Virus record (IMG/VR): IMGVR_UViG_3300045988_076522
Strand: one strand, 5' to 3'
Length of the DNA stretch: 64,000 bases
DNA from: a virus
The notes under the pieces were generated by a model, which had not been told where the DNA came from, made no database searches, and was given only the letters and a program-made list of their open reading frames with translations. Each line of letters starts with the position of its first letter. Position 1 is the first letter of the stretch. The position numbers were made by a program, and so were the translations under genes. Below are positions 2,504 to 59,040 of this stretch, one piece after another.

Positions 2504-3512
2504 AAAGCTCGTAATATGCTACACGCCTCAACAATGTAGTAAATTCGGTAAAACCCGACAACATATGACCATTATTAACAGGAAACACTCCAGACCTAAA
2601 ATCCGGAACTGTTGATACCACTAACATATTAGCCTTAAGTGTGGGTTTTGCCTTATATTCATTCTCTATGTACAATTTCAGCATCCACATATACATAGCC
2701 ATTTGCCTAGCATAGTGATACTTATCAAAGCTCTCATGAAACTTAGTGAGATAATGTCCACTAGTCTTCAAGTCATTGAGAACTAATTCATTCGACTCTG
2801 GACTGTATGTAAAATTATCCAACTTAGCTTTTAGTTTAAGAACCTTACTAAGACCATTATGCTCAACAAGCACATCTATTAATAGTACAGACTCATTCTT
2901 GGAGATTGGCTTCTCTAATAAATAGTCTGGATTCAATAAGGATTGTATTTGTGGATTACATTCAACTGATACAATACATTCTCGTAGTTTGTCTCTAGAT
3001 TTAGCATCAAGATAAATTGGAACCTTATCTGCAACATATTTGCTGCCCCACTCATAAGCTGTGCGTTGAGCATAATAGTTCTCGCATTTTATGCGCAGAG
3101 CATCCATTTTGTCTTCATCCATTTTACCTTTATAATAGCTAATCTTGTCAGACGCTACTACTATCTCATCCTTAGTAACAACACCATTAGCTATAAATAA
3201 AGGATACAGCTCATCAGCCATGAATCCGGCTTTAGCTGTTGGTCTATCTACAGACTCTACAAGAATAAAAGACTCTGGTTGCAGTACTAATTCATGTACT
3301 GCCGAACCAAAGTACAGCGAATCGGAGTATCTTCCATCAGCACCCAGTCCTGCTAAATAAGCTTCTGGGCTACCTCCTTGTTCTGGGTTTATAAGCTTCA
3401 ATCTAGAATTACTAATGTAATCAGAATAAGCTTCACTGAAATACTCCTCATCACTTATCTCAAGGAACTTGATAGTTTCAATTAGTGGTGTAATTTTAAT
3501 GTCTTTAAGCAT
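2475..3512 (-). CDS. Putative PD-(D/E)XK-family nuclease/exonuclease
   Basis: 345 aa with D/E/K-rich segments. It sits in the replication/recombination module. The call rests on context and weak motifs only. Confidence 0.35.
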   Translation of the reverse strand: MLKDIKITPLIETIKFLEISDEEYFSEAYSDYISNSRLKLINPEQGGSPEAYLAGLGADGRYSDSLYFGSAVHELVLQPESFILVESVDRPTAKAGFMADELYPLFIANGVVTKDEIVVASDKISYYKGKMDEDKMDALRIKCENYYAQRTAYEWGSKYVADKVPIYLDAKSRDKLRECIVSVECNPQIQSLLNPDYLLEKPISKNESVLLIDVLVEHNGLSKVLKLKAKLDNFTYSPESNELVLNDLKTSGHYLTKFHESFDKYHYARQMAMYMWMLKLYIENEYKAKPTLKANMLVVSTVPDFRSGVFPVNNGHMLSGFTEFTTLLRRVAYYELYGYDADGIL

Positions 3513-4008
3513 AACTCCTCATGAATTGATAAGCATCTATAATCTCATCTTTACATAAGGAGAATACTTTAAACATAGGAAAGTCAATAGTCCTTTCTGT
3601 ATGCATTAATAATGCAGGCAGTCCAGAACGTTGACATTTTAGTACGTTACTTAAAGAATCGTCAACAAAGACATCCACTTTACCTTTAATCATATCAGCC
3701 TTATTACCGTGTTGGTAATACATTTGATAGACTGGTCTATCTGGGAATCCATTTCGTCTTAGCCATTCTTTAGTCCAAGTTTTATTGTTTACACGTTTAG
3801 TGCAATATAATTCCGGAACAAAATCAGGTCTGTTAACTACTTTGAGATTTAACCAGAAGTCTCTGTCCTTACTAAGAATACGTTGTACATTCCTAGTAAT
3901 CATGCTATCTTCAAGCATACGTGGATTACTAGCTGTATCGAAGTACTCACAGTAAGCACCCCAAAAGTCAGCTAGACAATCGTCAATATCTAAACCTATT
4001 CTAAACAT
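3505..4008 (-). CDS. 5'(3')-deoxyribonucleotidase, HAD superfamily (NT5C-like)
   Basis: N-terminal IGLDIDDCLADF matches HAD motif I (DxDx[T/V]). The ~165 aa size is typical of phage NT5C. Confidence 0.6.
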   Translation of the reverse strand: MFRIGLDIDDCLADFWGAYCEYFDTASNPRMLEDSMITRNVQRILSKDRDFWLNLKVVNRPDFVPELYCTKRVNNKTWTKEWLRRNGFPDRPVYQMYYQHGNKADMIKGKVDVFVDDSLSNVLKCQRSGLPALLMHTERTIDFPMFKVFSLCKDEIIDAYQFMRSYA

Positions 4009-19916: not shown

Positions 19917-20855
19917 TTATAGCATTAAATTGTTAATACGTTTATATTCTTCAAACACTTTGTCCTCTGATTCTTCTCCCCACATACTGTGAATGAGAAT
20001 ACCATAAGCACAAGGCTGGTACACAATAGGGTCTACTGCCTTCTTAGTGATTGTAACCTCTGGATTGTTTAATTGACTAGGAGGGCAAGCTACAAATAGC
20101 TCATTTCTACCTATCTTAACAGCATCAAAGGAAACTATGTTAGGGTAGCTAAAAGCCTTTACATCAGCAGGAAGGCCGGGATTCTTGTTAATTATACTAG
20201 ACAGCCTGAGTGTGCCTTCTGTATCAGGGCCAATAACTATGTGATTGTGTGATTCTATGTATTTCTTCAGATTGTTCAACATAGTTTCACTGTCACTGTA
20301 TCCGTAGTTAATACCTGTAACATAATAATATGCCCCATTAGCATACTCCAACCCTAAATCAGAGAACATTGGTCCTTCACCATTAAGTTTACGCTTAACT
20401 TCTAAGATTTCTCTAATATTACGGTCAGGAATCACTCCAGTGTACTGTTTTAGTAGACCTTTGACAAGTTTATACTTCTTACAAACATCATCAAATTGTT
20501 TAGAACCAACTAGAAGAGTACTCTCTCCGAACACTTCTCTTGCACGCTTTACGAAACTAAACAAGTTCTTAGCGCGCATGGCATCCAGAGCTATCTGATT
20601 ATATTCCGATATTTTAGCTTGCAATAACCTAGCATTCTTTGAGCTGCCCAGTCCAGCATCAACCAACGTGTTGTATTCTCTTACTAATGTATCTCTATTA
20701 GGAATATCAACTGATGTCTTGGAAACAGAACGTAGATATTCCTCCATACATAAAGCAAGAGCCATAGCTATGTTGGACTGAATAGTCATCACCGGCACGT
20801 CAACCACTTCTGGAGTTATAACTTCAGAATCATTGCGTTTTAGAAATCTAAACAT
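19917..20855 (-). CDS. Paralog-family protein A (unknown function; C-terminal motif IHSMWGEESEDKVFEEYKR)
   Basis: Shares AGLG(S/G)(S/T)KNA, a G/Y-rich middle and the SMWGEE C-terminus with 28373..29224 and with the decayed copy at 22871..23745. Confidence 0.55.
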   Translation of the reverse strand: MFRFLKRNDSEVITPEVVDVPVMTIQSNIAMALALCMEEYLRSVSKTSVDIPNRDTLVREYNTLVDAGLGSSKNARLLQAKISEYNQIALDAMRAKNLFSFVKRAREVFGESTLLVGSKQFDDVCKKYKLVKGLLKQYTGVIPDRNIREILEVKRKLNGEGPMFSDLGLEYANGAYYYVTGINYGYSDSETMLNNLKKYIESHNHIVIGPDTEGTLRLSSIINKNPGLPADVKAFSYPNIVSFDAVKIGRNELFVACPPSQLNNPEVTITKKAVDPIVYQPCAYGILIHSMWGEESEDKVFEEYKRINNLML

Positions 20856-22867
20856 CAGAAATTGACTTTTAAAGTTCTACTAAATGTTCCGTCCACTTTA
20901 ACAATAACGGAATTACGCATAGTAGATGAGAACCCTAATCCACTCAATTGATGTTCTTGGTAAGGAGTCTTCATCTTATCAGCTAGAACCTCAAATACCT
21001 TACGGTGAGGAGTTAGCTCACTGTTAAGATATTCGTTAAAGAATCCACGAACAGGCTCCGGATTCTTGCAATCATCCAACATAAAGAAGTAATGTTTATT
21101 GCCAATACCCTGCTCATCCCAATAATTGGGAGACAGCATCATCACGTTCACCTTATGGAACTTGTTAGTATCAATATTCCATAGGCTTACTGACGAATGG
21201 CTAGTACTGGGTATTAGCTCTCTTATTTGGATACCTTTAGATTTACTGTAAGTAATCTCGGCAACCATGACATTCTCTTTATGTTTAACGGGTTTGTCAT
21301 AGACAAATTGTCGAACTTCTCCATTGTGTTCTATTTCCAATGTAAATCCTGTATCAACAGATTCTCTACAATGAAAGTTATTGACATACACAACATACTT
21401 ACCTTCAAGCATCTTGCGTTCGTTAACCCATATGATGTTCTCAACGGGTTTGCGAGTTTTGCCATATCCAGCATTTTCATCCACGTCTAGCTTACCACCA
21501 CTTCTGCCGATTCTGTTGGAGTAATAAATTTCAAGATTATTAGGTTCAACGACATGCAAATCCAAGTCATCATAGTTAGACCATGCCAACGAACATCTTA
21601 AGAATCCTTCAGTCTGACCACCAGCAGCTCTTACTTTCTCTTTAATAGAATCAGCTACTCCTCCATTATATGTCCAAGCAAAGTTGTTTGGCCATTTAAA
21701 TAGATTCTTAGCATCCTTATTAACAGGAGCTGTAAGAGTTACTAAGTTATTAGACAGCCTACTCTCCATTAACACTTCTATGTTAGTGGCAGTGGGTACC
21801 ACATTAGCAATGAAATCATCAATGCTAATTTCAGTTAACTTGTCAAACTTCTTAGGATTAACTTTAGTGTCTGCGGCCAGTTCCTCGAATATGTTTCCGG
21901 CCATTACCTTCTTGGCATCACGGTTAGCGAATATAACATTGTTGACTGTTATATCCTCTAAAGCAGCATGTCTACGAGGTAGAGAATCCATAAGACCTAG
22001 TTCCTGCACTTTCTTCTGTGCTTCCTCAATCATTCTTTTAGTAACAATTGACTTAGGTCTTTGATAGTTCTCTGGAGCCATGATACGTTCGTATGCAGTC
22101 ACACAATCGTCCAATTCAAGTCCTGATGATATATTTACCAACAATGTACCAATTGCCGTATTACGAATGCGTGCACATCCTACACGATTGAAGTTTGCCC
22201 AACACCAGTTGTCTTTCTCTTCATCAGGTAATGAATCATAGTATCTTTTATGACCCAGGAATACACTTAAGTCATTTTTAAACTGTTCTCCTCTATATAA
22301 AGCATTCTGACCTATTAAGTCCAGAACTGTTTCTATAGAATCGATAGTTAATTCCTCCAGTGCACGTTTGAACACTTCCTTAGTTGTGCGTAAAGTCCCC
22401 ATTACAGCAGATACGGATTCAGTTCCTGTATACACCAATTGATTTGGCATATGATAGTAAAGATGATTCCAGGTAATTACTTTAGGGCCTTGCAAACTGT
22501 CAATATAGACATTGTTTCTATCAATTCCTAGTTCATAATCACGAGTGATAAAAACATCTACAACTGGTTTTGATTTCACTAATGCATCGAGATTTCTAGC
22601 TACAGTAGCATAAGGTTCATCCAACTGTAGGTTCTCCCACATGGTTACTACTTTATTGTCTTTAATGGCGACAACTCTACCATAATGTCTGATATAATGT
22701 TTACAATTGTTGCAATTATGAGACTGTCTCTCTTCCTCCGGAAAGGAATTAAGATAACAATCCCATAATGCATCCTTGTCTACATTAGTCAGAAAGAGCA
22801 TGTCTGCACCAGCAGCTAGTTGATTAAACTGCGCATGGACTGCTCTTTTAAACTTGACAAATTCCAT
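20855..22867 (-). CDS. Large hypothetical protein (670 aa)
   Basis: Long uninterrupted ORF. N-terminal HNCNNCKHY Cys/His cluster. No confident motif. Confidence 0.55.
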   Translation of the reverse strand: MEFVKFKRAVHAQFNQLAAGADMLFLTNVDKDALWDCYLNSFPEEERQSHNCNNCKHYIRHYGRVVAIKDNKVVTMWENLQLDEPYATVARNLDALVKSKPVVDVFITRDYELGIDRNNVYIDSLQGPKVITWNHLYYHMPNQLVYTGTESVSAVMGTLRTTKEVFKRALEELTIDSIETVLDLIGQNALYRGEQFKNDLSVFLGHKRYYDSLPDEEKDNWCWANFNRVGCARIRNTAIGTLLVNISSGLELDDCVTAYERIMAPENYQRPKSIVTKRMIEEAQKKVQELGLMDSLPRRHAALEDITVNNVIFANRDAKKVMAGNIFEELAADTKVNPKKFDKLTEISIDDFIANVVPTATNIEVLMESRLSNNLVTLTAPVNKDAKNLFKWPNNFAWTYNGGVADSIKEKVRAAGGQTEGFLRCSLAWSNYDDLDLHVVEPNNLEIYYSNRIGRSGGKLDVDENAGYGKTRKPVENIIWVNERKMLEGKYVVYVNNFHCRESVDTGFTLEIEHNGEVRQFVYDKPVKHKENVMVAEITYSKSKGIQIRELIPSTSHSSVSLWNIDTNKFHKVNVMMLSPNYWDEQGIGNKHYFFMLDDCKNPEPVRGFFNEYLNSELTPHRKVFEVLADKMKTPYQEHQLSGLGFSSTMRNSVIVKVDGTFSRTLKVNF

Positions 22868-30188: not shown

Positions 30189-31646
30189 TTATTTGTTGTC
30201 TTTCTTCTCCGTAGAATAGTCCTTACGGTCAAGTTCCCACTCATACTCACACATCTGAGTAATTGCTTCAAGCTTCTCTGTACCCAGAACGAGTTTGAGA
30301 GCATTTACCAATCTTTCAGCCGGAGTTTCCACAACAGCTTTCTTGGATGCAAGTCCAAGTTGACGTTGATAAGATTCAACGCTAGCTTTGATATGGAACG
30401 ATGTTACATGGGTTTCTTCCGTAAAGATAAGTTTGGATTTGGTTGATTCAACGATTTCAGCCATAAATGCCGGAGCAATTTCAGCTTCTTGAATGTAGTT
30501 ACATACTTCACTCAAATCATCATCGATTGTATATCCTTCTTCAGCGGTGAAGGTAGAACGGATGAATTTCTCCGCAGTTTCAGCGTCCAGGCAGTCCATA
30601 GTAATCACAGAGCCGATTCTCTTACCTCTTAAGAAGGTAGGTTCAATCAATTCAATGTGATTAGTAGTGAACAAGGTGATTACGTTCATGTCTTTGGTAT
30701 CACCACCGTCCAGAGTATTCAGGATGTCTTGCATAGCAGCATCTCTGTTACCTCTAGTTACTTGGTCAATATCTTCAACAAATACGACAACACCATGGCC
30801 CGAACGGTCAACAACTTTACACATGCGCAGAGTTTCTGCAAGAAGAGAAGGATTCTTCAAATACACGAATGACCAGCCGTTTGTTACAGCATCTTTAGCC
30901 AGCTTAAATGCCAGCAAGGTCTTACCTGTACCATATTTACCTTCCAGCAAACAACCATACTTCAATGGAATACCTTTAGCCAGACATTTCTCTGGATACA
31001 AGATTCTTGAGCGTAGCGGTTGCAATTCAAATTCAGTCTTCTTAGAAAGAACCATGAATTGTTTCTCAATGCCGGCAAGTGTCATGATAGTAGGTTCAGA
31101 CAGATTACTGATTTCCAAAGCCTGGTTTTTGTAGATAGATTCTGATGCCAATAGCTCTTTAGTTCTGTCAACAATATCATCAATTAATGACTGGTATTTG
31201 AACTGGCATTGTCCTTTAATAAGGAGCAAATGACGGTCATTGTCATAGTTGATGTTGATTTCAGAATCTTCTCCCAATTCTTCAAGGCTAATTTTACCAA
31301 ACGGAACTTTGGTACGAGAACCGTCTGCCAGAACAACGTCTACGGTATCAATGTTGCTGTTTCCAGAAGGACTGTTATCCTCCTTACTAACGGCAGAACC
31401 GAAGATTTCATTGATTGCTCTGTTCAACTGATATACACCGTCTGGTTTCCAACAAAGCAGCGAGTATTTGAAACTTGCCATTTTCTTGGACTGTTTGATT
31501 TCACCTTCGATGAATCCCAGAGCATCAGCATACTTCACATTGCTTTGGAGCACTTCAATCATTCTCTGTTTCTGAGTTTCCTCGTACTTGTTAACTCTCT
31601 GCTTAATAGCAGCTGTAGTTCCTTGCGGAATAATGTTCTTTGCCAT
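30189..31646 (-). CDS. Classical AAA ATPase (CDC48/FtsH-type module)
   Basis: Walker A GKYGTGKT, Walker B VVFVEDID, sensor-1 TTN, Arg-finger region RGKRIGSVI. Confidence 0.6.
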   Translation of the reverse strand: MAKNIIPQGTTAAIKQRVNKYEETQKQRMIEVLQSNVKYADALGFIEGEIKQSKKMASFKYSLLCWKPDGVYQLNRAINEIFGSAVSKEDNSPSGNSNIDTVDVVLADGSRTKVPFGKISLEELGEDSEININYDNDRHLLLIKGQCQFKYQSLIDDIVDRTKELLASESIYKNQALEISNLSEPTIMTLAGIEKQFMVLSKKTEFELQPLRSRILYPEKCLAKGIPLKYGCLLEGKYGTGKTLLAFKLAKDAVTNGWSFVYLKNPSLLAETLRMCKVVDRSGHGVVVFVEDIDQVTRGNRDAAMQDILNTLDGGDTKDMNVITLFTTNHIELIEPTFLRGKRIGSVITMDCLDAETAEKFIRSTFTAEEGYTIDDDLSEVCNYIQEAEIAPAFMAEIVESTKSKLIFTEETHVTSFHIKASVESYQRQLGLASKKAVVETPAERLVNALKLVLGTEKLEAITQMCEYEWELDRKDYSTEKKDNK

Positions 31647-32175: not shown

Positions 32176-32197
32176 AGTAAAAGGAGTCCGAAGACTC

Positions 32198-33265
32198 CTA
32201 AACTAACTTATCGAATATCATGGGCTGTATCGACATCCATAAATTTGCTAGCATTTCTCGCTCTGCGTCAGATGCTTCATCCCAATGTGATACGTACAAT
32301 TTCTCCGTTCGTTCATTCCTATAAGGAACCTTAAATGAACGGTTAATGCGTACACTGTGTGCGAATAGGTCTTTGTCGAAATCAATAGCCCTAAGCGTCT
32401 TCTGGAAATCGTTGAACTTATTATTAGGGTCATCGACATCCCTAACAGACATTCCAGAAGGAAACGGGCCGTTACCATGCCTTGTTATATAAGGACGAGT
32501 TACATAACAAGTTTGGATTTCTTTACGTATACCTGCTTTCCGCAACAGCTCGTAAGCGTTTTGTGAAGTTGTATTAGACGGAGTACAATAAGGCATTATG
32601 CCGAATCTTTGGTCAAGCAATATTCCCTGTGAACCTTCAAACACTAGGTTATCATAATTCAACAAGCAATCTTCATTAACCGTACCTGTATGTAAGAAAT
32701 AAGCATGTGCTAACCTACACCAGTTGTCTAGGTCTATCGAAGGATATTTACTAGACATGTTGTAATAGTTATCCACTATGGCATTTAGTTTCTCACGCAG
32801 TATGTAAGGATTCATACAATCTACAACTGTTAAGCTGTATCCTGCCTTAACTCGGTCCAAACAAGCTTTAAACCCTGTACCTACAGTACCATGTCGTAAG
32901 TTCTCTTCGTTATTAACTTGGGAATAGACATCGAAGGGAATTACAACTTGGCAGTGAGGGTGATACTGAACAATGGGATGAACTCCCATTTTAGCTAAGT
33001 CTGCACCCTCCAACATAGAGGTAATTGGGTCTACAGTACAGTATTCGGACCAGTACGTCGGCACTCCAAGTAAGGTTCCGCTGCCAAAGTTACTAAAGGT
33101 GTGCATCATGTCTCCATGCTTTACAGTATGTCCTACTTGATGTCCACCACTAAACCTGACCACTAACACAGACTCTCGCTTACCTATGTACTTGTTACAT
33201 AAGTTGTGAACTGTCTGTCCCTTACCTTCGTCTCCAAAGAATGTTCCTAATACAATACTAATCAT
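32198..33265 (-). CDS. Adenylosuccinate synthetase homolog (PurA/PurZ family), short form
   Basis: P-loop IVLGTFFGDEGKGQ. VVRFSGGHQVGHTV corresponds to the PurA RFQGGHNAGHTV segment. HGTVGTGFKAC corresponds to TTKRGIGP. At 355 aa it is shorter than bacterial PurA (~430 aa). Confidence 0.6.
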   Translation of the reverse strand: MISIVLGTFFGDEGKGQTVHNLCNKYIGKRESVLVVRFSGGHQVGHTVKHGDMMHTFSNFGSGTLLGVPTYWSEYCTVDPITSMLEGADLAKMGVHPIVQYHPHCQVVIPFDVYSQVNNEENLRHGTVGTGFKACLDRVKAGYSLTVVDCMNPYILREKLNAIVDNYYNMSSKYPSIDLDNWCRLAHAYFLHTGTVNEDCLLNYDNLVFEGSQGILLDQRFGIMPYCTPSNTTSQNAYELLRKAGIRKEIQTCYVTRPYITRHGNGPFPSGMSVRDVDDPNNKFNDFQKTLRAIDFDKDLFAHSVRINRSFKVPYRNERTEKLYVSHWDEASDAEREMLANLWMSIQPMIFDKLV

Positions 33266-33271
33266 TTCAGT

Positions 33272-34204
33272 TTAATAAAATTTGTCATTACTATCAGACG
33301 GCACGTCTTGCCATTCCTGACTAACAGAAGCACTAGGAGCTAAGCCTTCAACAGGCTCCTCATAGTTCTCTTTAATTGCGGTGACAATCACCTTGTCTAC
33401 TTCTCCAGATGCACATGTTAATACATTCTGTCCAAGTAAAGTCTTCCAAGATTCAGCAACCCTTGAGCCATGACTGGCATTAGTAATGTGAATGTGGAAT
33501 ACATGGTACTGTTCCTTTGCTTTGTCAAGAGCTTCTTGACAAGTAATGGTTTTAGCACCTTTTTGATACCCTAGAACACGTTCTAAGTAACATCCCTCTA
33601 CCTTATCGAGATTTGGTTCATCTCCAATAGTAAATAAGAATCCCTTAGTGTGTCTTTCAAACCAGGAATCAGTTTCAGTATGATAACCCGCTACGATGTG
33701 AGATAGTAGATAGCTTTCACCTCTATTACCTCCTCCTCCACCTTCAATCACGAATGACTGTAAAGTGTCAAGGATTTTAGCTGTATCAGACTCAAACTGA
33801 CCAATTTGAATTGGATATCGGTCATAAACGTGGTCCCCAACTGCCATAAACATGATTTGTGGGTCACGCACACCTAGTTGAATGAGAGAGTCCATAATCT
33901 TAGGGAATTGGTCTCTAATCATTTCATAAGGTGTGTCCATCATTGAACCAGTAACGTCTAGCGCAATGATTATCGGAGTAGAGAAAGGATGTTCTTTAGA
34001 ATCACGAGATTCACGAACACCCACGTTAACCATTTCTTGCCTTATCTGCGTGTTATACTGCCTAACATTGTTGTTAAGCGATGCAGCAGTATTACATGCA
34101 TTAATGGCATGGCTCTTAAAGAGTTCATCCCTAGTGGAGGTATATAAACCCCTACTGCCGGCCTCTACATCATAAGCAATTCTAGAATAACTACCTGCTC
34201 CCAT
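33272..34204 (-). CDS. von Willebrand factor A (vWA) domain protein
   Basis: MIDAS motif in IIIALDVTGSMMDTP (DxTGS). Gly-rich loop GGGGGNRGESY. Confidence 0.55.
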   Translation of the reverse strand: MGAGSYSRIAYDVEAGSRGLYTSTRDELFKSHAINACNTAASLNNNVRQYNTQIRQEMVNVGVRESRDSKEHPFSTPIIIALDVTGSMMDTPYEMIRDQFPKIMDSLIQLGVRDPQIMFMAVGDHVYDRYPIQIGQFESDTAKILDTLQSFVIEGGGGGNRGESYLLSHIVAGYHTETDSWFERHTKGFLFTIGDEPNLDKVEGCYLERVLGYQKGAKTITCQEALDKAKEQYHVFHIHITNASHGSRVAESWKTLLGQNVLTCASGEVDKVIVTAIKENYEEPVEGLAPSASVSQEWQDVPSDSNDKFY

Positions 34205-34207
34205 AAA

Positions 34208-34588
34208 TTATTCATTTACAGTTGCAGCAGCGTCATCTTTCACGTCATCCAAATTAATGGATTCTGATGCATCAGCGGGAAATTCTTCTGCATCGACTTG
34301 CATAGCTAGAGCAAGTTCAATCTTTGCAACACGCAGTTTACGTGCCAATTCATGTCTTGTTCTTACCCATTCAGCCGGATTCAGTCCTTCTCCCGGATTC
34401 AAAGAGTCTCTTGATTTAACAGCCAGGTCGTTGTGTTTGTTGATTTCTCCCTGAATGCGGAGTACTTTCAATTTACAATCCTGAACAAATCTGTCTTCCT
34501 CGATTTTAGCCAATTCATACAGATTCTGCGCTCTTGCATCAAGTACACTTTGTCCACTCTTACTTAATTTCTCTTTAAAACTGCTCAT
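34208..34588 (-). CDS. Hypothetical coiled-coil protein
   Basis: 126-aa ORF. Confidence 0.45.
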   Translation of the reverse strand: MSSFKEKLSKSGQSVLDARAQNLYELAKIEEDRFVQDCKLKVLRIQGEINKHNDLAVKSRDSLNPGEGLNPAEWVRTRHELARKLRVAKIELALAMQVDAEEFPADASESINLDDVKDDAAATVNE

Positions 34589-36877: not shown

Positions 36878-36896
36878 AAACTCTTATTAGCCAGCG

Positions 36897-36984
36897 CGGA
36901 GAGTGCTGGATTCGAACCAGCGGAACCCTTTTGAGGTTCGGTCCCTTAGCAGGGGACTGGTTTAAGCCACTCACCCAACTCTCC
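36897..36984 (-). tRNA. tRNA-Ser (anticodon GCT), type II
   Basis: GGAGAGT...ACTCTCC. Anticodon stem GTCCC/GGGAC with loop CTGCTAA. Long variable arm. T-arm GCTGGTTCGAATCCAGC. Confidence 0.65.
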
Positions 36985-46462: not shown

Positions 46463-48157
46463 TTAGACCTTCACAGGCTTCTTCTGCACGCTTGCATTCT
46501 TCTTGACAACATCCTTCTCTAGAATCATCATATTAAGCAACTCTTGATTCATAGCATGCTTAAAGATGTCTCTAGTGGTTTTAGGCACCTGGAACCTCTT
46601 CTCTCCAGTAATAAATGAGGATGTTGAATTATTAAGTCCATTTACTAAGAAGCAATTTGACACTCCTGGAACCAAAGCCACATTAGGTCTTCCCTTATAT
46701 GCTAAAGGAACTCTCCAAATGATAACTTTGAATGCTCTTACAAATTCCTTACTGAAATTTGCTTTAAGCAGTCTTTGCTTAAATTCCACGAATGCTTGGT
46801 TGTTCAACTTGGTAAAATATGTATGGTTAGTAATTACCACACAGCCTCTAGGGAACTCTCCTTCATCCACACCATAATCTTCTTTCATTTTACACAGCAT
46901 TTCTGCTATATTAATAATAGAAGGATTCTGGCATAATGCTTCTTCTTTGTCAGATTTCCATTTCTCAATGACATTCTGACCTTTGAACTTACGTAGAACC
47001 ATGTTATCCTCTAACACGGCATAGGAGTTCTTGAATATTGTAGGAAGTAATTCAGAATGATATAAAGCATATGCTTTACCCAAACTGTAAGCAGATGTTT
47101 CGCTATTCTCTATCTCACCATTAGCAGAATGACTTATATCTCTTACTACCAACAACGGAGCTACTCTATTGCGTTTAGCATTATCAACAAATACATTGAA
47201 ACTTGCATTAATAGAAGTTTCCATAAATTCTGGAATCTCTTCGGCAATTTTATCCAATCCGTATGGTTTGAATAGAGTATGTAGAAATCCGCTATTAGAG
47301 GGCTTCTTACGGTTCTTCAACCAGTTCTGATACTTCTCTTTAAGACCTTGATGTTTGAGGAATTTAGAGCCTACTAGCTGTGCCAGCGCCTTTCCAGTAA
47401 CAGTGTCAAAATCGATTTCCAAGAATTTCTTTTGGCTGATTAACTGCTGCCATTGGGCTGCTTTCCCGCTATTCTTCATCTTCCTATATTTACGATAGGT
47501 TGAATAGTCTCCTTCATCCTTAGGTTTACCATAAAGGCCTTCCGCCAAGAATTTGGCTACTGTGTTACGTGCTTTTGCCTCATCTGTCTTACATGCAACA
47601 CTGGAACGAACACGAGGAAGATACTTCTTTACTAAATCACATGTCTGACCGTTGGCAAGACCTGCGAATATGACTTTCTTGAAGAAGTCCCAATCCAATC
47701 TGTGCTTAAAGCCATGGAGTTGAACATCTAAAGCCATCATAGTAATGAAATCTTTCCAGCATCCGGCTGCTGCAAAATAAGCAATGTTGGCATGGAATGT
47801 GGGTTTGTGATAGATTGCCAACCACAACATTCTCATTATACCTTCATTCTTCAAACCTTCTCCTTGCTGTGTATCAAGTTGTATAACTCCTTCCGGGGTA
47901 GTTATTCTACATTTACGAGTTATCATTCTCGTATATGCAGTAAACTTAGTACATAGTAATGGATTAGCTTTCCATAAAGGATACATATCTTTAGCCACTT
48001 GCACGTAGGTACGTGGCTGAAGACATTTCTTAAGATTAACAAACTGGTCTATGAATAACTGATTATTATCCACAAACTTAGGTTTATTCTCATCCCGCCT
48101 TTGACGTGCGGCATTAGGGTAAGGCCTCCTTGGCCTTTGTGCTCCTTTCATTTCCAT
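46463..48157 (-). CDS. Large basic protein with a C-terminal vWA/MIDAS domain (Ro60/TROVE-like or DUF2828-like architecture)
   Basis: 564 aa. Basic N-terminus (RPRRPYPNAARQRRDENKPK). A MIDAS-like DISHS motif follows a hydrophobic strand (PLLVVRDISHSANGE). The helical N-terminal two-thirds plus a C-terminal vWA is the architecture of Ro60/Rsr. Confidence 0.4.
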   Translation of the reverse strand: MEMKGAQRPRRPYPNAARQRRDENKPKFVDNNQLFIDQFVNLKKCLQPRTYVQVAKDMYPLWKANPLLCTKFTAYTRMITRKCRITTPEGVIQLDTQQGEGLKNEGIMRMLWLAIYHKPTFHANIAYFAAAGCWKDFITMMALDVQLHGFKHRLDWDFFKKVIFAGLANGQTCDLVKKYLPRVRSSVACKTDEAKARNTVAKFLAEGLYGKPKDEGDYSTYRKYRKMKNSGKAAQWQQLISQKKFLEIDFDTVTGKALAQLVGSKFLKHQGLKEKYQNWLKNRKKPSNSGFLHTLFKPYGLDKIAEEIPEFMETSINASFNVFVDNAKRNRVAPLLVVRDISHSANGEIENSETSAYSLGKAYALYHSELLPTIFKNSYAVLEDNMVLRKFKGQNVIEKWKSDKEEALCQNPSIINIAEMLCKMKEDYGVDEGEFPRGCVVITNHTYFTKLNNQAFVEFKQRLLKANFSKEFVRAFKVIIWRVPLAYKGRPNVALVPGVSNCFLVNGLNNSTSSFITGEKRFQVPKTTRDIFKHAMNQELLNMMILEKDVVKKNASVQKKPVKV

Positions 48158-57752: not shown

Positions 57753-57959
57753 AGTTTAATAATTTATTAGTGAAACAATATAGAACGAGCTTATTTGCTC
57801 GTTCTGATTAGCTTTTAAATTAGGTTTGCTTTAATTTCTTCACATTCTTCACGTGTGATTATACAACGCGTAGCATTAACTAAAACATAACCGTTTGAAA
57901 GATAAGTAAACATAACTCTAATAATTTTAAAATGAATATTATAAAGCAAAACCAAATGA

Positions 57960-58300
57960 TATAAATCTTTTGATTTTCTCCAAACATGGGTGAGGGGTGT
58001 GAAGGGTAACACGACTGTCGTATCCGCAATATACACAAATCTTGCAATATTCACCCAGCATCCGAGTTGGCAATATATAATATGACAACCCACCCCGGGA
58101 GTGGGAGGGGTGTGATTTTGAGCACCCGTACTTGTAAGTTGGCAATATATATTAATTTCTATTCATCTTACTAATTGCAAGCAAGCCCCGAAGGGGCGCA
58201 GATTGCCACAGCACGTCATGAAGTTCCGAGTTGGCAATATACTTAATATTAACTGTGAATTTGAGTTGGCAATATATAATATATATTAATAATTATATTA
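57960..58300. promoter_or_regulatory. Divergent intergenic control region: four copies of GAGTTGGCAATATA interleaved with GC hairpins
   Basis: Motif copies at about 58062, 58136, 58228 and 58264 (CCGAGTTGGCAATATATAATATG, GTAAGTTGGCAATATATATTAAT, CCGAGTTGGCAATATACTTAATA, TTGAGTTGGCAATATATAATATA). Hairpins CACCCCgggagtgggaGGGGTG (58091-58115) and GCCCCgaaGGGGC (58186-58198). The strand switch occurs here. Confidence 0.5.
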
Positions 58301-58408
58301 CCATTTGGTAATATTGAAATATATAACTAATTTTGTATTGTCAAATTAAATAATAATATATTTGCGAACTTAAATCAGAATTATTAACAATAACTAAAAT
58401 TTATAACA

Positions 58409-58663
58409 ATGGCTAAAGAAGTTAAAGACTTAACAAGTAAAGAAGTAGATGAAGTAAAAATATTAAAGACTAGTTTGTCAGAATGTCCAGTAAATACTGA
58501 TTTAGGATGTAATGAATCAAAGGCAACTAACTGGGTGAAGTTAGACAATAAAACAACAGATGTAAAATTAGAATTATTAAATAAATTGCAAGACGGACTA
58601 GCTAATGGAGCTGGTATTGAATATTTAATGCAACTATCTTGCATTTATAATAACATTCGCTAA
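58409..58663 (+). CDS. Hypothetical protein
   Basis: First plus-strand ORF after the control region. 84 aa. Confidence 0.5.
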   Translation: MAKEVKDLTSKEVDEVKILKTSLSECPVNTDLGCNESKATNWVKLDNKTTDVKLELLNKLQDGLANGAGIEYLMQLSCIYNNIR

Positions 58664-58665
58664 TA

Positions 58666-59040
58666 ATGAGACATATTGATAGAATTAATAAGCAGTATGA
58701 AGAGAAGGAAGTTAAATTGCTATATGATAAAGCTGTAGCGTTAATGAATCTTCTTAGTGATGAGGAATATGAACAAGTAATTACAGACAATGCAGATATA
58801 TTTAAATTAGCATCTCATCCCGAGAGGGGTGAGTTCTATTTACAAGATAAGCACAACTTAGTCCAGATTGTAGACATATTTAGTAAATTCATTAAAACTA
58901 AAGGCCTATCTAAGGACGAATTTAAAATAATGACTCTAGATGAAGTTAAAGAGTATATGGTTGATGTTATTAATGATATCACATCATTCGAACCAGATGA
59001 GCTATTCACAATAGTAAAGAACTTAGAGAAACTTCAATGA
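58666..59040 (+). CDS. Hypothetical protein
   Basis: 124 aa, tightly packed. Confidence 0.5.
   Translation: MRHIDRINKQYEEKEVKLLYDKAVALMNLLSDEEYEQVITDNADIFKLASHPERGEFYLQDKHNLVQIVDIFSKFIKTKGLSKDEFKIMTLDEVKEYMVDVINDITSFEPDELFTIVKNLEKLQ

What the first reader, a model, noticed from the sequence alone, without database searches (positions are those of the whole stretch)
32198..33265. Short adenylosuccinate-synthetase homolog (PurA/PurZ-like): a possible 2-aminoadenine (Z-genome) marker
The protein has the PurA P-loop (GDEGKGQ), the GGHQVGHTV segment and GTVGTGF. At 355 aa it is closer in length to phage PurZ and archaeal-type PurA (~340-360 aa) than to bacterial PurA (~430 aa). Established knowledge: PurZ converts dGMP plus Asp to dSMP in phages that replace A with 2-aminoadenine, and usually co-occurs with DatZ (HD dATPase), MazZ and DpoZ. 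None of those partners was recognised in this window, so the gene could instead be an auxiliary purine-metabolism PurA. An NT5C 5'-deoxyribonucleotidase at 3505-4008 is the only other nucleotide-metabolism gene seen.
Basis: partly seen in the sequence, partly recalled or inferred. Interest (0 to 1): 0.75.

Follow-up and report, generated by a model that had tools for sequence, protein, structure and literature searches.

The report
PurA-like enzyme in vWA gene cassette
The gene is a real adenylosuccinate-synthetase relative but not the PurZ enzyme of 2-aminoadenine phages; it belongs to a separate, widespread branch that is almost always encoded next to a von Willebrand-A (vWA) protein, in large phages and in bacteria, and the function of that cassette is unknown.

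Summary
A 355-aa ORF at 32198-33265 (minus strand) matches Pfam PF00709 (8.7e-35) and carries the quoted motifs.

The Z-genome reading is refuted:
- The protein keeps Asp13 (GDEGKG); all phage PurZ/PurZ0 have Ser there.
- It scores 22 bits on NCBI's PurZ model (cut-off 300; PurZ controls 350-397).
- It lacks the PurZ 2-amino-pocket and ATP-stacking residues.
- It falls outside PurZ+PurZ0 in a tree (500/500 bootstraps).
- No DatZ, MazZ or DpoZ homologue is in the 64-kb window.

It is not an ordinary PurA either:
- It fails every PurA equivalog model (at most 101 bits against cut-offs of 368 or more).
- It has a 4-residue deletion in the aspartate loop (Arg303 and Arg305 missing) and lacks Arg143.
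- It has clade-specific invariant residues (TRHG; Gln at Gly298).
- The phosphotransfer residues (Asp13, Lys16, His41, Gln224) are invariant.

The new finding is a conserved cassette: small helical protein (34208-34588), vWA/MIDAS protein (33272-34204), PurA-like enzyme.
- The vWA and PurA-like genes are adjacent in 74/76 viral loci, 26/26 divergent lineages and 75/80 bacterial loci.
- Phage records carrying the two genes largely coincide by host genus (220 versus 238 records).
- In other lineages a protein kinase replaces the small protein.

Function is untested. I infer a GTP-dependent purine-C6 ligase with an altered acceptor, working with the vWA partner.

The parts
32198..33265 (-). PurA-like enzyme, 355 aa. 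Member of a distinct 'vWA-linked' clade of the adenylosuccinate-synthetase superfamily. P-loop GDEGKG; catalytic Asp12/Lys15/His46/Gln213 (E. coli D13/K16/H41/Q224). Clade hallmarks: TRHG (His263), Gln288, a 4-residue deletion in the Asp loop, and no C-terminal guanine-binding segment.
   Evidence: ORF; Pfam; NCBIfam; residue mapping; motif census; model and fold; tree.
33272..34204 (-). vWA/MIDAS partner protein, 310 aa (PHROG 2971, unannotated). It ends 6 nt upstream of the PurA-like start codon. MIDAS residues D83-x-T85-x-S87, T176 and D195 are invariant; it has an EGGGG motif and a conserved N-terminus MG-x-G-x-[WYF].
34208..34588 (-). Small predicted-helical protein, 126 aa, first gene of the cassette. 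It ends 3 nt upstream of the vWA start codon. In other lineages a protein-kinase-like gene takes this position.
   Evidence: An HMM built from the equivalent gene of 33 bacterial loci hits only this ORF in the window (E=1.5e-8). It is retained upstream of the vWA gene in related viral loci. Kinase and small-protein forms are mutually exclusive (41 versus 33 of 80 loci, none with both). Sequence and spacing.

Best explanation
The gene encodes the enzymatic component of a conserved three-gene cassette: small helical protein, then vWA/MIDAS protein, then PurA-like enzyme. The cassette occurs in large phages and in bacteria of many phyla. The enzyme is a divergent member of the adenylosuccinate-synthetase superfamily, and is neither PurZ nor a housekeeping-type PurA.

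Shown: the fold; strict conservation of the residues that in E. coli PurA transfer the GTP gamma-phosphate to O6 of IMP (Asp13, Lys16, His41, Gln224, P-loop); a remodelled acceptor side (4-residue deletion removing Arg303/Arg305, Thr301 replaced by Phe/Leu/Met, new invariant Gln and His); loss of the trans-subunit Arg143; and near-obligate adjacency to the vWA gene.

Inferred: the enzyme still activates a 6-oxopurine nucleotide as a 6-phosphoryl intermediate, probably with GTP because Asp333 is mostly kept. It then displaces the phosphate with an amine, but the acceptor and/or nucleotide differs from free L-aspartate plus IMP, so the product is probably not bulk adenylosuccinate for AMP supply. 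The vWA protein probably acts as an obligate partner (regulator, scaffold, or supplier of missing active-site or substrate groups). The first gene (small protein or kinase) probably controls the pair. The phage is not predicted to have a 2-aminoadenine genome on the basis of this gene.
For: Not PurZ:
- PurZ HMM 22.2 bits against cut-off 300; controls 397, 350 and E. coli PurA 127.
- Asp at the PurZ Ser position in the query and in 148/150 diverse representatives. PurZ has GSTGKG and PurZ0 GSEAKG. The Ser rule comes from PMC12884076.
- PurZ markers T262/F295/Y298 are Gln/His/Glu here.
- With the family profile against PDB sequences, bacterial PurA scores 137 bits, PurZ0 29.5 bits, and PurZ does not reach E<=0.001. 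PurZ structures rank last in the fold search.
- NJ tree: clade 500/500, PurZ+PurZ0 500/500.
- No DatZ/MazZ/DpoZ in the window. In the phage collection, neither Mycobacterium nor Rhizobium appears among the genera named for DatZ or PurZ hits.

Not canonical PurA:
- TIGR00184 91.6 against 395.6; NF002223 100.8 against 402; archaeal-type NF003295 61.9 against 368.
- Asp-loop deletion, R143G, T129V, N38Q, V273H, G298Q.
- TRHG in 148/150 representatives and [ST]RHG in 70/75 bacterial copies.

Likely still catalytic: D13, K16, H41, Q224 and T239 are invariant or nearly so.

Cassette:
- vWA gene directly upstream on the same strand in 74/76 viral loci, down to 38% identity. It is also there in phages Colt, phiKT1024, MT835469 and RHph_TM30.
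- These are the only two families present in 26/26 divergent loci.
- Phage-collection counts by host genus: 220 versus 238 records; Mycobacterium 201/202, Rhizobium 10/10, Vibrio 6/6.
- 75/80 bacterial loci chosen through the vWA gene have the PurA-like gene immediately downstream.
- The partner has a vWA fold with complete MIDAS.
- First gene.
Against: - No biochemical data exist for any member, so substrate and product are inferred from residue changes only.
- PurZ and archaeal PurA also depart from the E. coli Asp loop yet still use aspartate, so loop remodelling alone does not prove a new acceptor.
- A conserved Arg (R138), one helical turn before the R143 position, might substitute for it.
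- Adjacency could reflect regulation of an otherwise ordinary adenylosuccinate synthetase.
- Only 64 kb of a roughly 185-kb genome was examined for Z-genome partner genes.
- The tree used only three canonical PurA sequences and no archaeal short PurA.
- The phage-collection co-occurrence rests on counts by host genus, not on a record-by-record intersection.
Confidence: 0.55

Rival explanations
1. Ordinary auxiliary adenylosuccinate synthetase. The enzyme makes adenylosuccinate from IMP, aspartate and GTP to boost adenine-nucleotide supply during infection, perhaps insensitive to host feedback such as ppGpp. The vWA and small proteins merely regulate it.
For: Catalytic residues are intact. Sequence and fold are closest to bacterial PurA. 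Asp333 of the guanine pocket is kept in most members. Database annotations call relatives 'PurA-like adenylosuccinate synthetase'. In the metaGPA study, most PF00709 proteins on unmodified contigs grouped with PurA.
Against: Scores are 3-4 fold below every PurA equivalog cut-off. Arg303/Arg305 are deleted, Thr301 is hydrophobic and Arg143 is lost; by my own recollection of the E. coli mutagenesis literature these residues matter for Asp and IMP binding, and the R143L and R303L mutant structures appear among the fold hits. A metabolic enzyme has no obvious need for a near-obligate vWA/MIDAS neighbour plus a kinase or small protein across eight phyla. No purB-like lyase was detected in the window.
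Confidence: 0.25
2. PurZ-type enzyme marking a 2-aminoadenine (Z) genome.
For: It belongs to the same superfamily and has a similar length. PHROG 1211 lumps it under the PurZ-derived label '2-aminooxy adenylosuccinate synthetase'.
Against: Every tested defining feature fails: Asp instead of Ser; PurZ HMM 22 against 300 bits; specificity residues differ; separate clade at 500/500; no DatZ/MazZ/DpoZ in the window; and neither Mycobacterium nor Rhizobium is among the genera named for DatZ or PurZ hits in the phage collection.
Confidence: 0.02
3. Conflict-related nucleotide or RNA repair. The cassette re-aminates deaminated adenine nucleotides (IMP/dIMP/ITP-derived) or acts on damaged tRNA/RNA, countering host deaminase- or nuclease-based defences. 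In bacteria the same cassette would serve stress or conflict functions.
For: The window gene lies inside a 29-tRNA array, near SPFH/Band-7 and an 'RNA-binding protein' (PHROG 850). In other lineages the neighbours are a TROVE-annotated protein, an Rv2179c-like exoribonuclease, HAD_SAK_2, polynucleotide kinase and an R2K ATP-grasp. In Flavobacteriia the cassette lies beside SUKH immunity-type genes. The 5'-phosphate ligands T129 and R143 are lost. dITP/dIMP immune signalling exists in the Kongming system.
Against: Apart from the cassette genes, the neighbours are lineage-specific, not universal. No paper links PurA-like proteins to these systems. There is no PADLOC hit. The PurA active site is a closed small-molecule pocket (my own knowledge). 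In Dyadobacter the flanks are ordinary chromosomal genes.
Confidence: 0.12
4. Catalytically inert pseudoenzyme used as a nucleotide sensor or scaffold bound by the vWA protein.
For: The substrate-binding loops have diverged, and vWA domains typically bind protein ligands (for the MoxR-vWA paradigm).
Against: The P-loop, Asp13, Lys16, His41 and Gln224 are invariant across hundreds of sequences at 30-40% overall identity. That pattern is the signature of retained catalysis.
Confidence: 0.05

Closest known systems
Bacterial adenylosuccinate synthetase PurA (E. coli PurA, PDB 1ADE/1CG0; H. pylori 6ZXQ)
   Same: Same fold (TM 0.72, 24-26% identity). Same P-loop GDEGKG and catalytic Asp13/Lys16/His41/Gln224/Thr239. 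Best-scoring relatives by sequence profile.
   Different: About 75 residues shorter in this phage. The C-terminal guanine-binding segment (S414 region) is absent. The Asp loop is shortened by 4 residues, without R303/R305/T301. Other changes: R143G, T129V, N38Q, V273H, G298Q. Far below the equivalog cut-offs. Always paired with a vWA gene.
PurZ / PurZ0 (succino-amino-deoxyadenylate synthase of Z-genome phages: PhiVC8, S-2L, Gordonia phage Archimedes 7VF6)
   Same: Same superfamily, phage-encoded, similar length (343-377 aa).
   Different: PurZ/PurZ0 have Ser at the Asp13 position (GSTGKG/GSEAKG). They keep T129, R143 and a full-length Asp loop, have T262/F295/Y298, and sit next to DatZ/MazZ/DpoZ or DutZ/DmtZ. 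The query shares none of these. Identity is 12-21%, and it forms a separate clade at 500/500.
'PurA-like adenylosuccinate synthetase' of cluster C mycobacteriophages (Bxz1, Colt gp253) and homologues in Rhizobium RHph and 191-kb Vibrio phages
   Same: Same clade (30-33% identity, 500/500 bootstrap). Same hallmarks: GD[EA]GKG, TRHG, Gln at G298 and the Asp-loop deletion. Same upstream vWA gene.
   Different: The Colt protein is 442 aa and keeps a PurA-like C-terminal extension. Colt has a protein kinase (gp251) upstream of the vWA gene instead of the small helical protein. No function has been reported for these genes in the literature I could search.
vWA-centred prokaryotic modules (MoxR-vWA pairs; vWA + kinase + PP2C phosphatase triads such as TerY-P)
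   Same: A standalone vWA/MIDAS protein encoded with a protein kinase and an NTP-dependent enzyme. Occurrence in both bacteria and phages, and sometimes beside immunity-type genes, resembles conflict systems.
   Different: There is no MoxR next to the vWA gene; the window's AAA+ gene at 30189-31646 is not conserved with the pair. No PP2C phosphatase was seen and there is no PADLOC hit. A PurA-like enzyme has not been described as a component. The comparison with TerY-P rests on my own knowledge and was not tested.

Membership tests
PurZ / PurZ0 | Ser replaces the catalytic Asp13 of PurA (100% of 147 phage PurZ/PurZ0; PMC12884076) | tested here: not met
   The query has Asp12 in GDEGKG. The clade has Asp in 148/150 representatives and 75/75 bacterial copies. 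Reference PurZ sequences have GSTGKG and PurZ0 GSEAKG.
PurZ / PurZ0 | Score above the curated cut-off of the NCBIfam PurZ model NF038379 (300 bits) | tested here: not met
   22.2 bits. Positive controls: PhiVC8 397.2, S-2L 349.8. E. coli PurA scores 126.7.
PurZ / PurZ0 | 2-amino-group pocket and ATP-stacking residues (PhiVC8 S14, T262, F295, Y298) | tested here: not met
   The aligned residues are D12, Q288, H327 and E330. The residue list comes from bioRxiv 10.1101/2025.10.22.683976.
PurZ / PurZ0 | Monophyly with known PurZ/PurZ0 | tested here: not met
   NJ tree, 50 sequences, 362 columns. PurZ+PurZ0 split 500/500; the query's clade 500/500 apart. Mean distance to PurZ is 1.75, against 1.37 to canonical PurA. 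Outgroup sampling was limited.
PurZ / PurZ0 | Genomic co-occurrence with DatZ, MazZ/DUF550 and DpoZ (or DutZ/DmtZ) | tested here: not met
   No HD, MazG, DUF550, dUTPase, NDT or DNA_pol_A domain in 116 window ORFs. tblastn with PhiVC8/S-2L proteins was negative. DatZ homologues occur in 94 phage records with no Mycobacterium or Rhizobium among the genera named. Only 64 kb of the genome was available.
PurZ / PurZ0 | dGMP + Asp -> dSMP activity; 2-aminoadenine in virion DNA | not testable with these tools
   Needs an enzyme assay and LC-MS of nucleosides.
Canonical PurA (equivalog) | Score above curated equivalog cut-offs (TIGR00184 395.6; NF002223 402; archaeal-type NF003295 368) | tested here: not met
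   91.6, 100.8 and 61.9 bits. E. coli PurA control: 697 and 688.
Canonical PurA (equivalog) | Catalytic residues Asp13, Lys16, His41, Gln224 and the P-loop | tested here: met
   Invariant or nearly invariant in 115 family members and in alignment A3.
Canonical PurA (equivalog) | Aspartate loop (E. coli 298-305: Thr300, Thr301, Arg303, Arg305) | tested here: not met
   A 4-residue deletion removes G302-R305. T301 is Phe/Leu/Met and G298 is an invariant Gln. PurZ keeps a full-length loop.
Canonical PurA (equivalog) | IMP 5'-phosphate ligands Asn38, Thr129, Thr239 and Arg143 from the second subunit | tested here: inconclusive
   T239 is kept; N38Q, T129V/C and R143G/H/M. A conserved Arg138 one helical turn earlier might compensate. 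No coordinates were available to check.
Canonical PurA (equivalog) | Guanine specificity elements Lys331, Asp333, Ser414 | tested here: inconclusive
   D333 is kept in the query and in 65/115 members; K331 is His; the S414 segment is absent in the short forms.
Adenylosuccinate-synthetase superfamily (PF00709) | Pfam gathering score and PurA fold | tested here: met
   120.7 bits against 27. Foldseek E=9e-22, TM 0.72 to 6ZXQ, on a model with pLDDT 92.6.
vWA-linked PurA-like clade (defined here) | TRHG motif, Gln at E. coli G298, shortened Asp loop, and a vWA/MIDAS gene immediately upstream on the same strand | tested here: met
   The query has all four. TRHG is found in 148/150 representatives. 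Adjacency: 74/76, 26/26 and 75/80.
vWA domain with MIDAS (partner protein 33272-34204) | vWA Rossmann-like fold and MIDAS residues DxSxS...T...D | tested here: met

The most novel reading that the evidence does not exclude
The cassette is an undescribed system shared by bacteria and phages. In it a PurA-derived ligase activates a 6-oxopurine nucleotide and couples it to a non-aspartate amine. The product would be either a new N6-substituted purine nucleotide acting as a signal or effector, or a nucleotide-protein conjugate on the vWA partner. The partner's N-terminal Gly (MG-x-G-x-aromatic) is conserved across phyla and could supply the amine. The kinase or small protein would act as the switch. 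On this reading the cassette is a conflict (defence or counter-defence) module rather than metabolism.
Probability: 0.2. Interest if true: 0.85.

Novelty: new variant of a known kind. Interest (0 to 1): 0.55.

Why it matters
First, it corrects an annotation trap. PHROG 1211 and RefSeq label hundreds of phage genes of this clade '2-aminooxy adenylosuccinate synthetase', a PurZ-derived name. A reader or pipeline could therefore wrongly predict Z-genomes for cluster C mycobacteriophages, Rhizobium, Vibrio and gut phages. The Asp/Ser P-loop residue and the TRHG motif separate the groups cleanly.

Second, it identifies a very large branch of the PurA superfamily. At least 150 clusters at 50% identity score above 316 bits, and 4000 representatives have E <= 1e-30, although that set may include canonical PurA. 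The branch keeps the phosphotransfer chemistry, has a rebuilt acceptor site, and is genetically locked to a vWA/MIDAS protein and a kinase or small protein, in at least eight bacterial phyla and several unrelated groups of large phages.

This gives a concrete, testable case of a core purine-biosynthesis enzyme recruited to a new role. Culturable models exist: Mycobacterium phages Bxz1 and Colt, and Dyadobacter and Formosa strains.

Tried and rejected
- The first alignment with references misaligned the PurZ Asp loop and suggested that PurZ shares the deletion. A smaller, better-resolved alignment showed that PurZ keeps a full-length loop plus T129 and R143. I use the later result.
- The first tree attempt timed out. 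The second used a Kimura correction that saturated into NaN distances and is invalid (only its identities and motif listing are used). The Poisson-distance tree is the one cited.
- PADLOC gave no hit for the enzyme, the vWA protein or the small protein.
- The vWA profile found nothing among PDB sequences even at E<=1; only the fold search identified it.
- The AAA+ ATPase at 30189-31646 looked like a possible MoxR-type partner of the vWA protein, but it is not conserved with the pair beyond close relatives.
- HMMs for the kinase-like, R2K ATP-grasp, HD_4 and HAD_SAK_2 neighbours seen in other lineages found nothing in the window at E<=1.
- An Rfam search for a group I intron in the split vWA gene of L006 was negative.
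- Literature searches for vWA plus adenylosuccinate synthetase, anti-defence roles, jumbo phages and RNA-repair systems found no description of the module. The Kongming/dITP paper does not mention PurA.
- TAG recoding, suggested by a CTA-anticodon tRNA, is not supported in this window. Read-through of the gene's TAG stop would run into tRNA-Gln.
- A megablast of 20 kb around the gene found no related cultured phage.
Full report
OBSERVATION. The ORF is real. It runs 32198-33265 on the minus strand, starts with ATG and encodes 355 aa with FFGDEGKGQ, GGHQVGHTV and GTVGTGF as quoted. It is a significant adenylosuccinate-synthetase homologue: Pfam PF00709 at 8.7e-35 and 120.7 bits against a cut-off of 27, although only profile positions 1-277 of 416 are matched. 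PHROG 1211 matches at 1.6e-46. An AlphaFold model built on 61 homologues has pLDDT 92.6 and matches PurA structures at TM 0.72. The window is a novel phage region with about 37% G+C, nearly all genes on the minus strand up to about 58 kb, 29 tRNA genes, and no close cultured relative.

IS IT PurZ? No. PMC12884076 reports that all 147 phage PurZ/PurZ0 sequences carry Ser at the position of E. coli Asp13, whereas 99% of cellular PurA keep Asp.
- The query has Asp (GDEGKG). PhiVC8, S-2L, ZP6 and Bhz20 PurZ have GSTGKG, and Ghobes, Archimedes and Urla PurZ0 have GSEAKG.
- On NCBI's dedicated PurZ model (NF038379, cut-off 300 bits) the query scores 22.2. PhiVC8 PurZ scores 397, S-2L PurZ 350 and E. 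coli PurA 127.
- A family profile searched against PDB sequences gives 137 bits for bacterial PurA, 78 for archaeal short PurA and 29.5 for PurZ0 (7VF6). PurZ does not reach E <= 0.001. In the fold search the PurZ structures rank last among PurA-fold hits (TM 0.63-0.65, 12-16% identity).
- A neighbour-joining tree (50 sequences, 362 columns, 500 bootstraps) separates PurZ+PurZ0, canonical PurA and the query's clade, each at 500/500. The clade is nearer canonical PurA (mean distance 1.37) than PurZ (1.75) or PurZ0 (1.65). Caveat: only three canonical sequences and no archaeal ones were included.
- No HD/DatZ, MazG/DUF550, dUTPase, NDT or family-A polymerase domain was found in 116 ORFs of the window. 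tblastn with PhiVC8/S-2L DatZ, MazZ and DpoZ was negative.
- Across the phage collection, DatZ homologues (94 records) and PurZ homologues (211 records) show no Mycobacterium or Rhizobium among the genera named in the summaries, and those are the lineages that carry this clade.

IS IT AN ORDINARY PurA? Also no. It scores 92-101 bits on the bacterial PurA equivalog models (cut-offs 396-402) and 62 on the archaeal-type model (cut-off 368). Residue mapping against E. coli PurA shows two things.
- The phosphotransfer machinery is invariant across the family: the P-loop, Asp13, Lys16, His41, Gln224 and Thr239.
- The substrate-binding periphery is rebuilt in a clade-specific way. The aspartate loop is 4 residues shorter, with Gly302-Arg305 missing. 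Thr301 is Phe/Leu/Met. Gly298 is an invariant Gln, and Val273 an invariant His (TRHG). Arg143, which in PurA reaches into the neighbouring subunit's IMP site, is Gly/His/Met. Thr129 is Val/Cys, and Asn38 is mostly Gln.
PurZ keeps Thr129, Arg143 and a full-length loop, so these changes are not shared with PurZ. An earlier alignment had suggested otherwise and is superseded. The hallmarks are general: among the 150 best representatives at 50% clustering, all at or above 316 bits, 148 have Asp in the P-loop and 148 have [ST][RK]HG.

This gene accompanies the PurA-like gene almost without exception:
- In 74 of 76 IMG/VR loci with enough upstream sequence, on the same strand, down to 38% identity.
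- In Mycobacterium phage Colt (gp252-gp253), Vibrio phage phiKT1024, gut phage MT835469 and Rhizobium phage RHph_TM30.
- In an unbiased clustering of all ORFs from 26 divergent loci, these are the only two families present in 26/26.
- In the phage collection the partner occurs in 220 records and the enzyme in 238. Counts by host genus match: Mycobacterium 201/202, Rhizobium 10/10, Vibrio 6/6. The extra enzyme hits are weak matches in Listeria, Staphylococcus, Salmonella and Acinetobacter records, and no partner hit is listed for those genera. This comparison is by genus counts, not record by record.
- Searching 185,579 species-representative genomes with the vWA profile returned 80 loci, from Dyadobacter, Winogradskyella, Formosa, Flavobacterium, Chryseobacterium, Pyrinomonadaceae, Acidimicrobiales, Dyella, Hahella, Myxococcota, Leptospiraceae, Clostridia, Saccharibacteria and Nitrospirae. 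In 75 of them a PurA-like gene with the same hallmarks lies immediately downstream, often with overlapping stop and start codons.
- Several loci are on megabase scaffolds or complete chromosomes and are flanked by ordinary cellular genes or SUKH immunity-type genes.

The position upstream of the vWA gene is filled in one of two mutually exclusive ways. It holds either a kinase-like gene (41/80 bacterial loci and 11/26 viral lineages; Colt gp251 matches Pfam Pkinase) or a small protein of about 120 aa (33/80 bacterial loci), never both. An HMM of the bacterial small protein hits exactly one ORF in the window, 34208-34588 (E=1.5e-8). That ORF ends 3 nt before the vWA start. So the window carries the small-protein form of a three-gene cassette.

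MECHANISM (inference). Invariant catalytic residues at 30-40% overall identity argue that the enzyme is active. Retention of Asp13/His41/Gln224 argues that it still forms a 6-phosphoryl-purine intermediate, and frequent retention of Asp333 suggests GTP as donor. The rebuilt aspartate loop and the missing Arg143 suggest a changed amine acceptor and/or nucleotide, or a need for groups supplied by another protein. The obligate vWA neighbour is the obvious candidate. MIDAS sites normally capture a carboxylate from a ligand, and the partner's N-terminus MG-x-G-x-[WYF] is conserved from phages to bacteria.

I therefore favour a regulated purine-C6 ligase acting with the vWA protein (confidence 0.55) over an ordinary auxiliary PurA (0.25). 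A role in nucleotide or RNA repair or in counter-defence is suggested by RNA-repair-type neighbours in several lineages. Those neighbours are lineage-specific, so this stays a minor rival. None of this is tested biochemically, and I found no publication describing the module.

NOVELTY AND VERDICT. The gene family is already in databases as 'PurA-like' or, misleadingly, '2-aminooxy adenylosuccinate synthetase'. In the literature I could search, the following appear undescribed: its delineation as a third clade with its own active-site signature, and its near-obligate cassette with a vWA/MIDAS protein and a kinase or small protein in both phages and bacteria. The finding as proposed, a Z-genome marker, is refuted. 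What replaces it is a moderately interesting new variant of a known enzyme kind, with clear experiments available.

LIMITS. Only 64 kb of a genome of roughly 185 kb was examined. The tree has few outgroups. I could not check whether cassette-bearing bacteria also keep a canonical purA.

Noticed in passing
window 17991-51605: An array of 29 tRNA genes interspersed with protein genes, nearly all on the minus strand. It includes a CTA-anticodon (amber-reading) tRNA at 44072-44144. Reading through TAG does not fuse ORFs in this window, so there is no sign of recoding here. The tRNA-Arg(tcg) call at 36881-36957 (+) overlaps tRNA-Ser(gct) at 36896-36984 (-) and is probably a mirror artefact.
   Followed up: partly
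L019 9247-9996 (and about 10 near-identical strains: L020-L027, L029): A 249-aa ORF is inserted between the vWA and PurA-like genes, giving a gap of 792 nt instead of 10. It has repeated Cys-rich motifs and a C-terminal FIEYDGEQHF, and Pfam DUF4379 (treble-clef) and DUF723 hits in the batch scan most likely belong to it, so it looks like a free-standing homing endonuclease. Substitutions cluster at the 5' end of the PurA-like gene (S3N, T8S, E13C), as expected for co-conversion.
   Followed up: partly
L006 7891-9993; cluster C mycobacteriophages such as Sauce, Pinkcreek and ET08: The vWA gene is interrupted at conserved motifs. In L006 an insertion sits at the EGGGG motif, splitting the gene into a 501-aa ORF plus a 161-aa ORF in the same frame; a LAGLIDADG_3 hit in the batch scan most likely belongs to it, and no group I intron was found by Rfam. 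In some mycobacteriophages the match stops near residue 192, close to the MIDAS Asp motif, with an 'HNH endonuclease' annotated there. Mobile elements seem to target the functional core of this gene.
   Followed up: partly
window 20855-22867 (-): A 670-aa protein matches PHROG 1735 (unknown function) at E=3e-261. It is conserved at about 47% identity in 544 phage records infecting Salmonella, Klebsiella, Bacillus, Serratia, Caulobacter and others. It is a very widespread large-phage protein with no annotation.
   Followed up: no
window 37072-39033 (-), 46463-48157 (-), 30189-31646 (-): An SPFH/Band-7 protein (653 aa), a PHROG 850 'RNA-binding protein' (564 aa) and an AAA+ ATPase with weak IetA/IteA-like hits lie within the tRNA array. 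Together they give the region an RNA-repair or conflict flavour. None is conserved with the cassette across lineages.
   Followed up: partly
There is no Pfam hit at E<=0.01. The best PHROG hits are families of unknown function, and PHROG 2643 (5'-3' deoxyribonucleotidase) matches only at E=3.3e-4 over residues 3-60.
   Followed up: partly
window about 57800-58700: The coding strand switches from minus to plus. G+C drops from about 0.38 to 0.32 and the GC-skew sign flips. This may be a module boundary or a divergent transcription or replication landmark.
   Followed up: no
window 32179-32198 (-): A hairpin GGAGTC-TTCG-GACTCC followed by TTTT begins at the TAG stop of the PurA-like gene and ends 3 nt before tRNA-Gln (32176). 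It could be a weak terminator or an RNA-processing element. The terminator scan did not report it.
   Followed up: no
L008, L074, L076, L080, L081, L084-L087 (viral loci): In one divergent viral lineage the cassette is extended. The order is kinase-like, vWA, PurA-like, then an R2K-clade ATP-grasp directly downstream, with HAD_SAK_2, an Rv2179c-like exoribonuclease and an HD_4-type gene nearby. This suggests a larger ligase-rich or RNA-repair-type island.
   Followed up: partly
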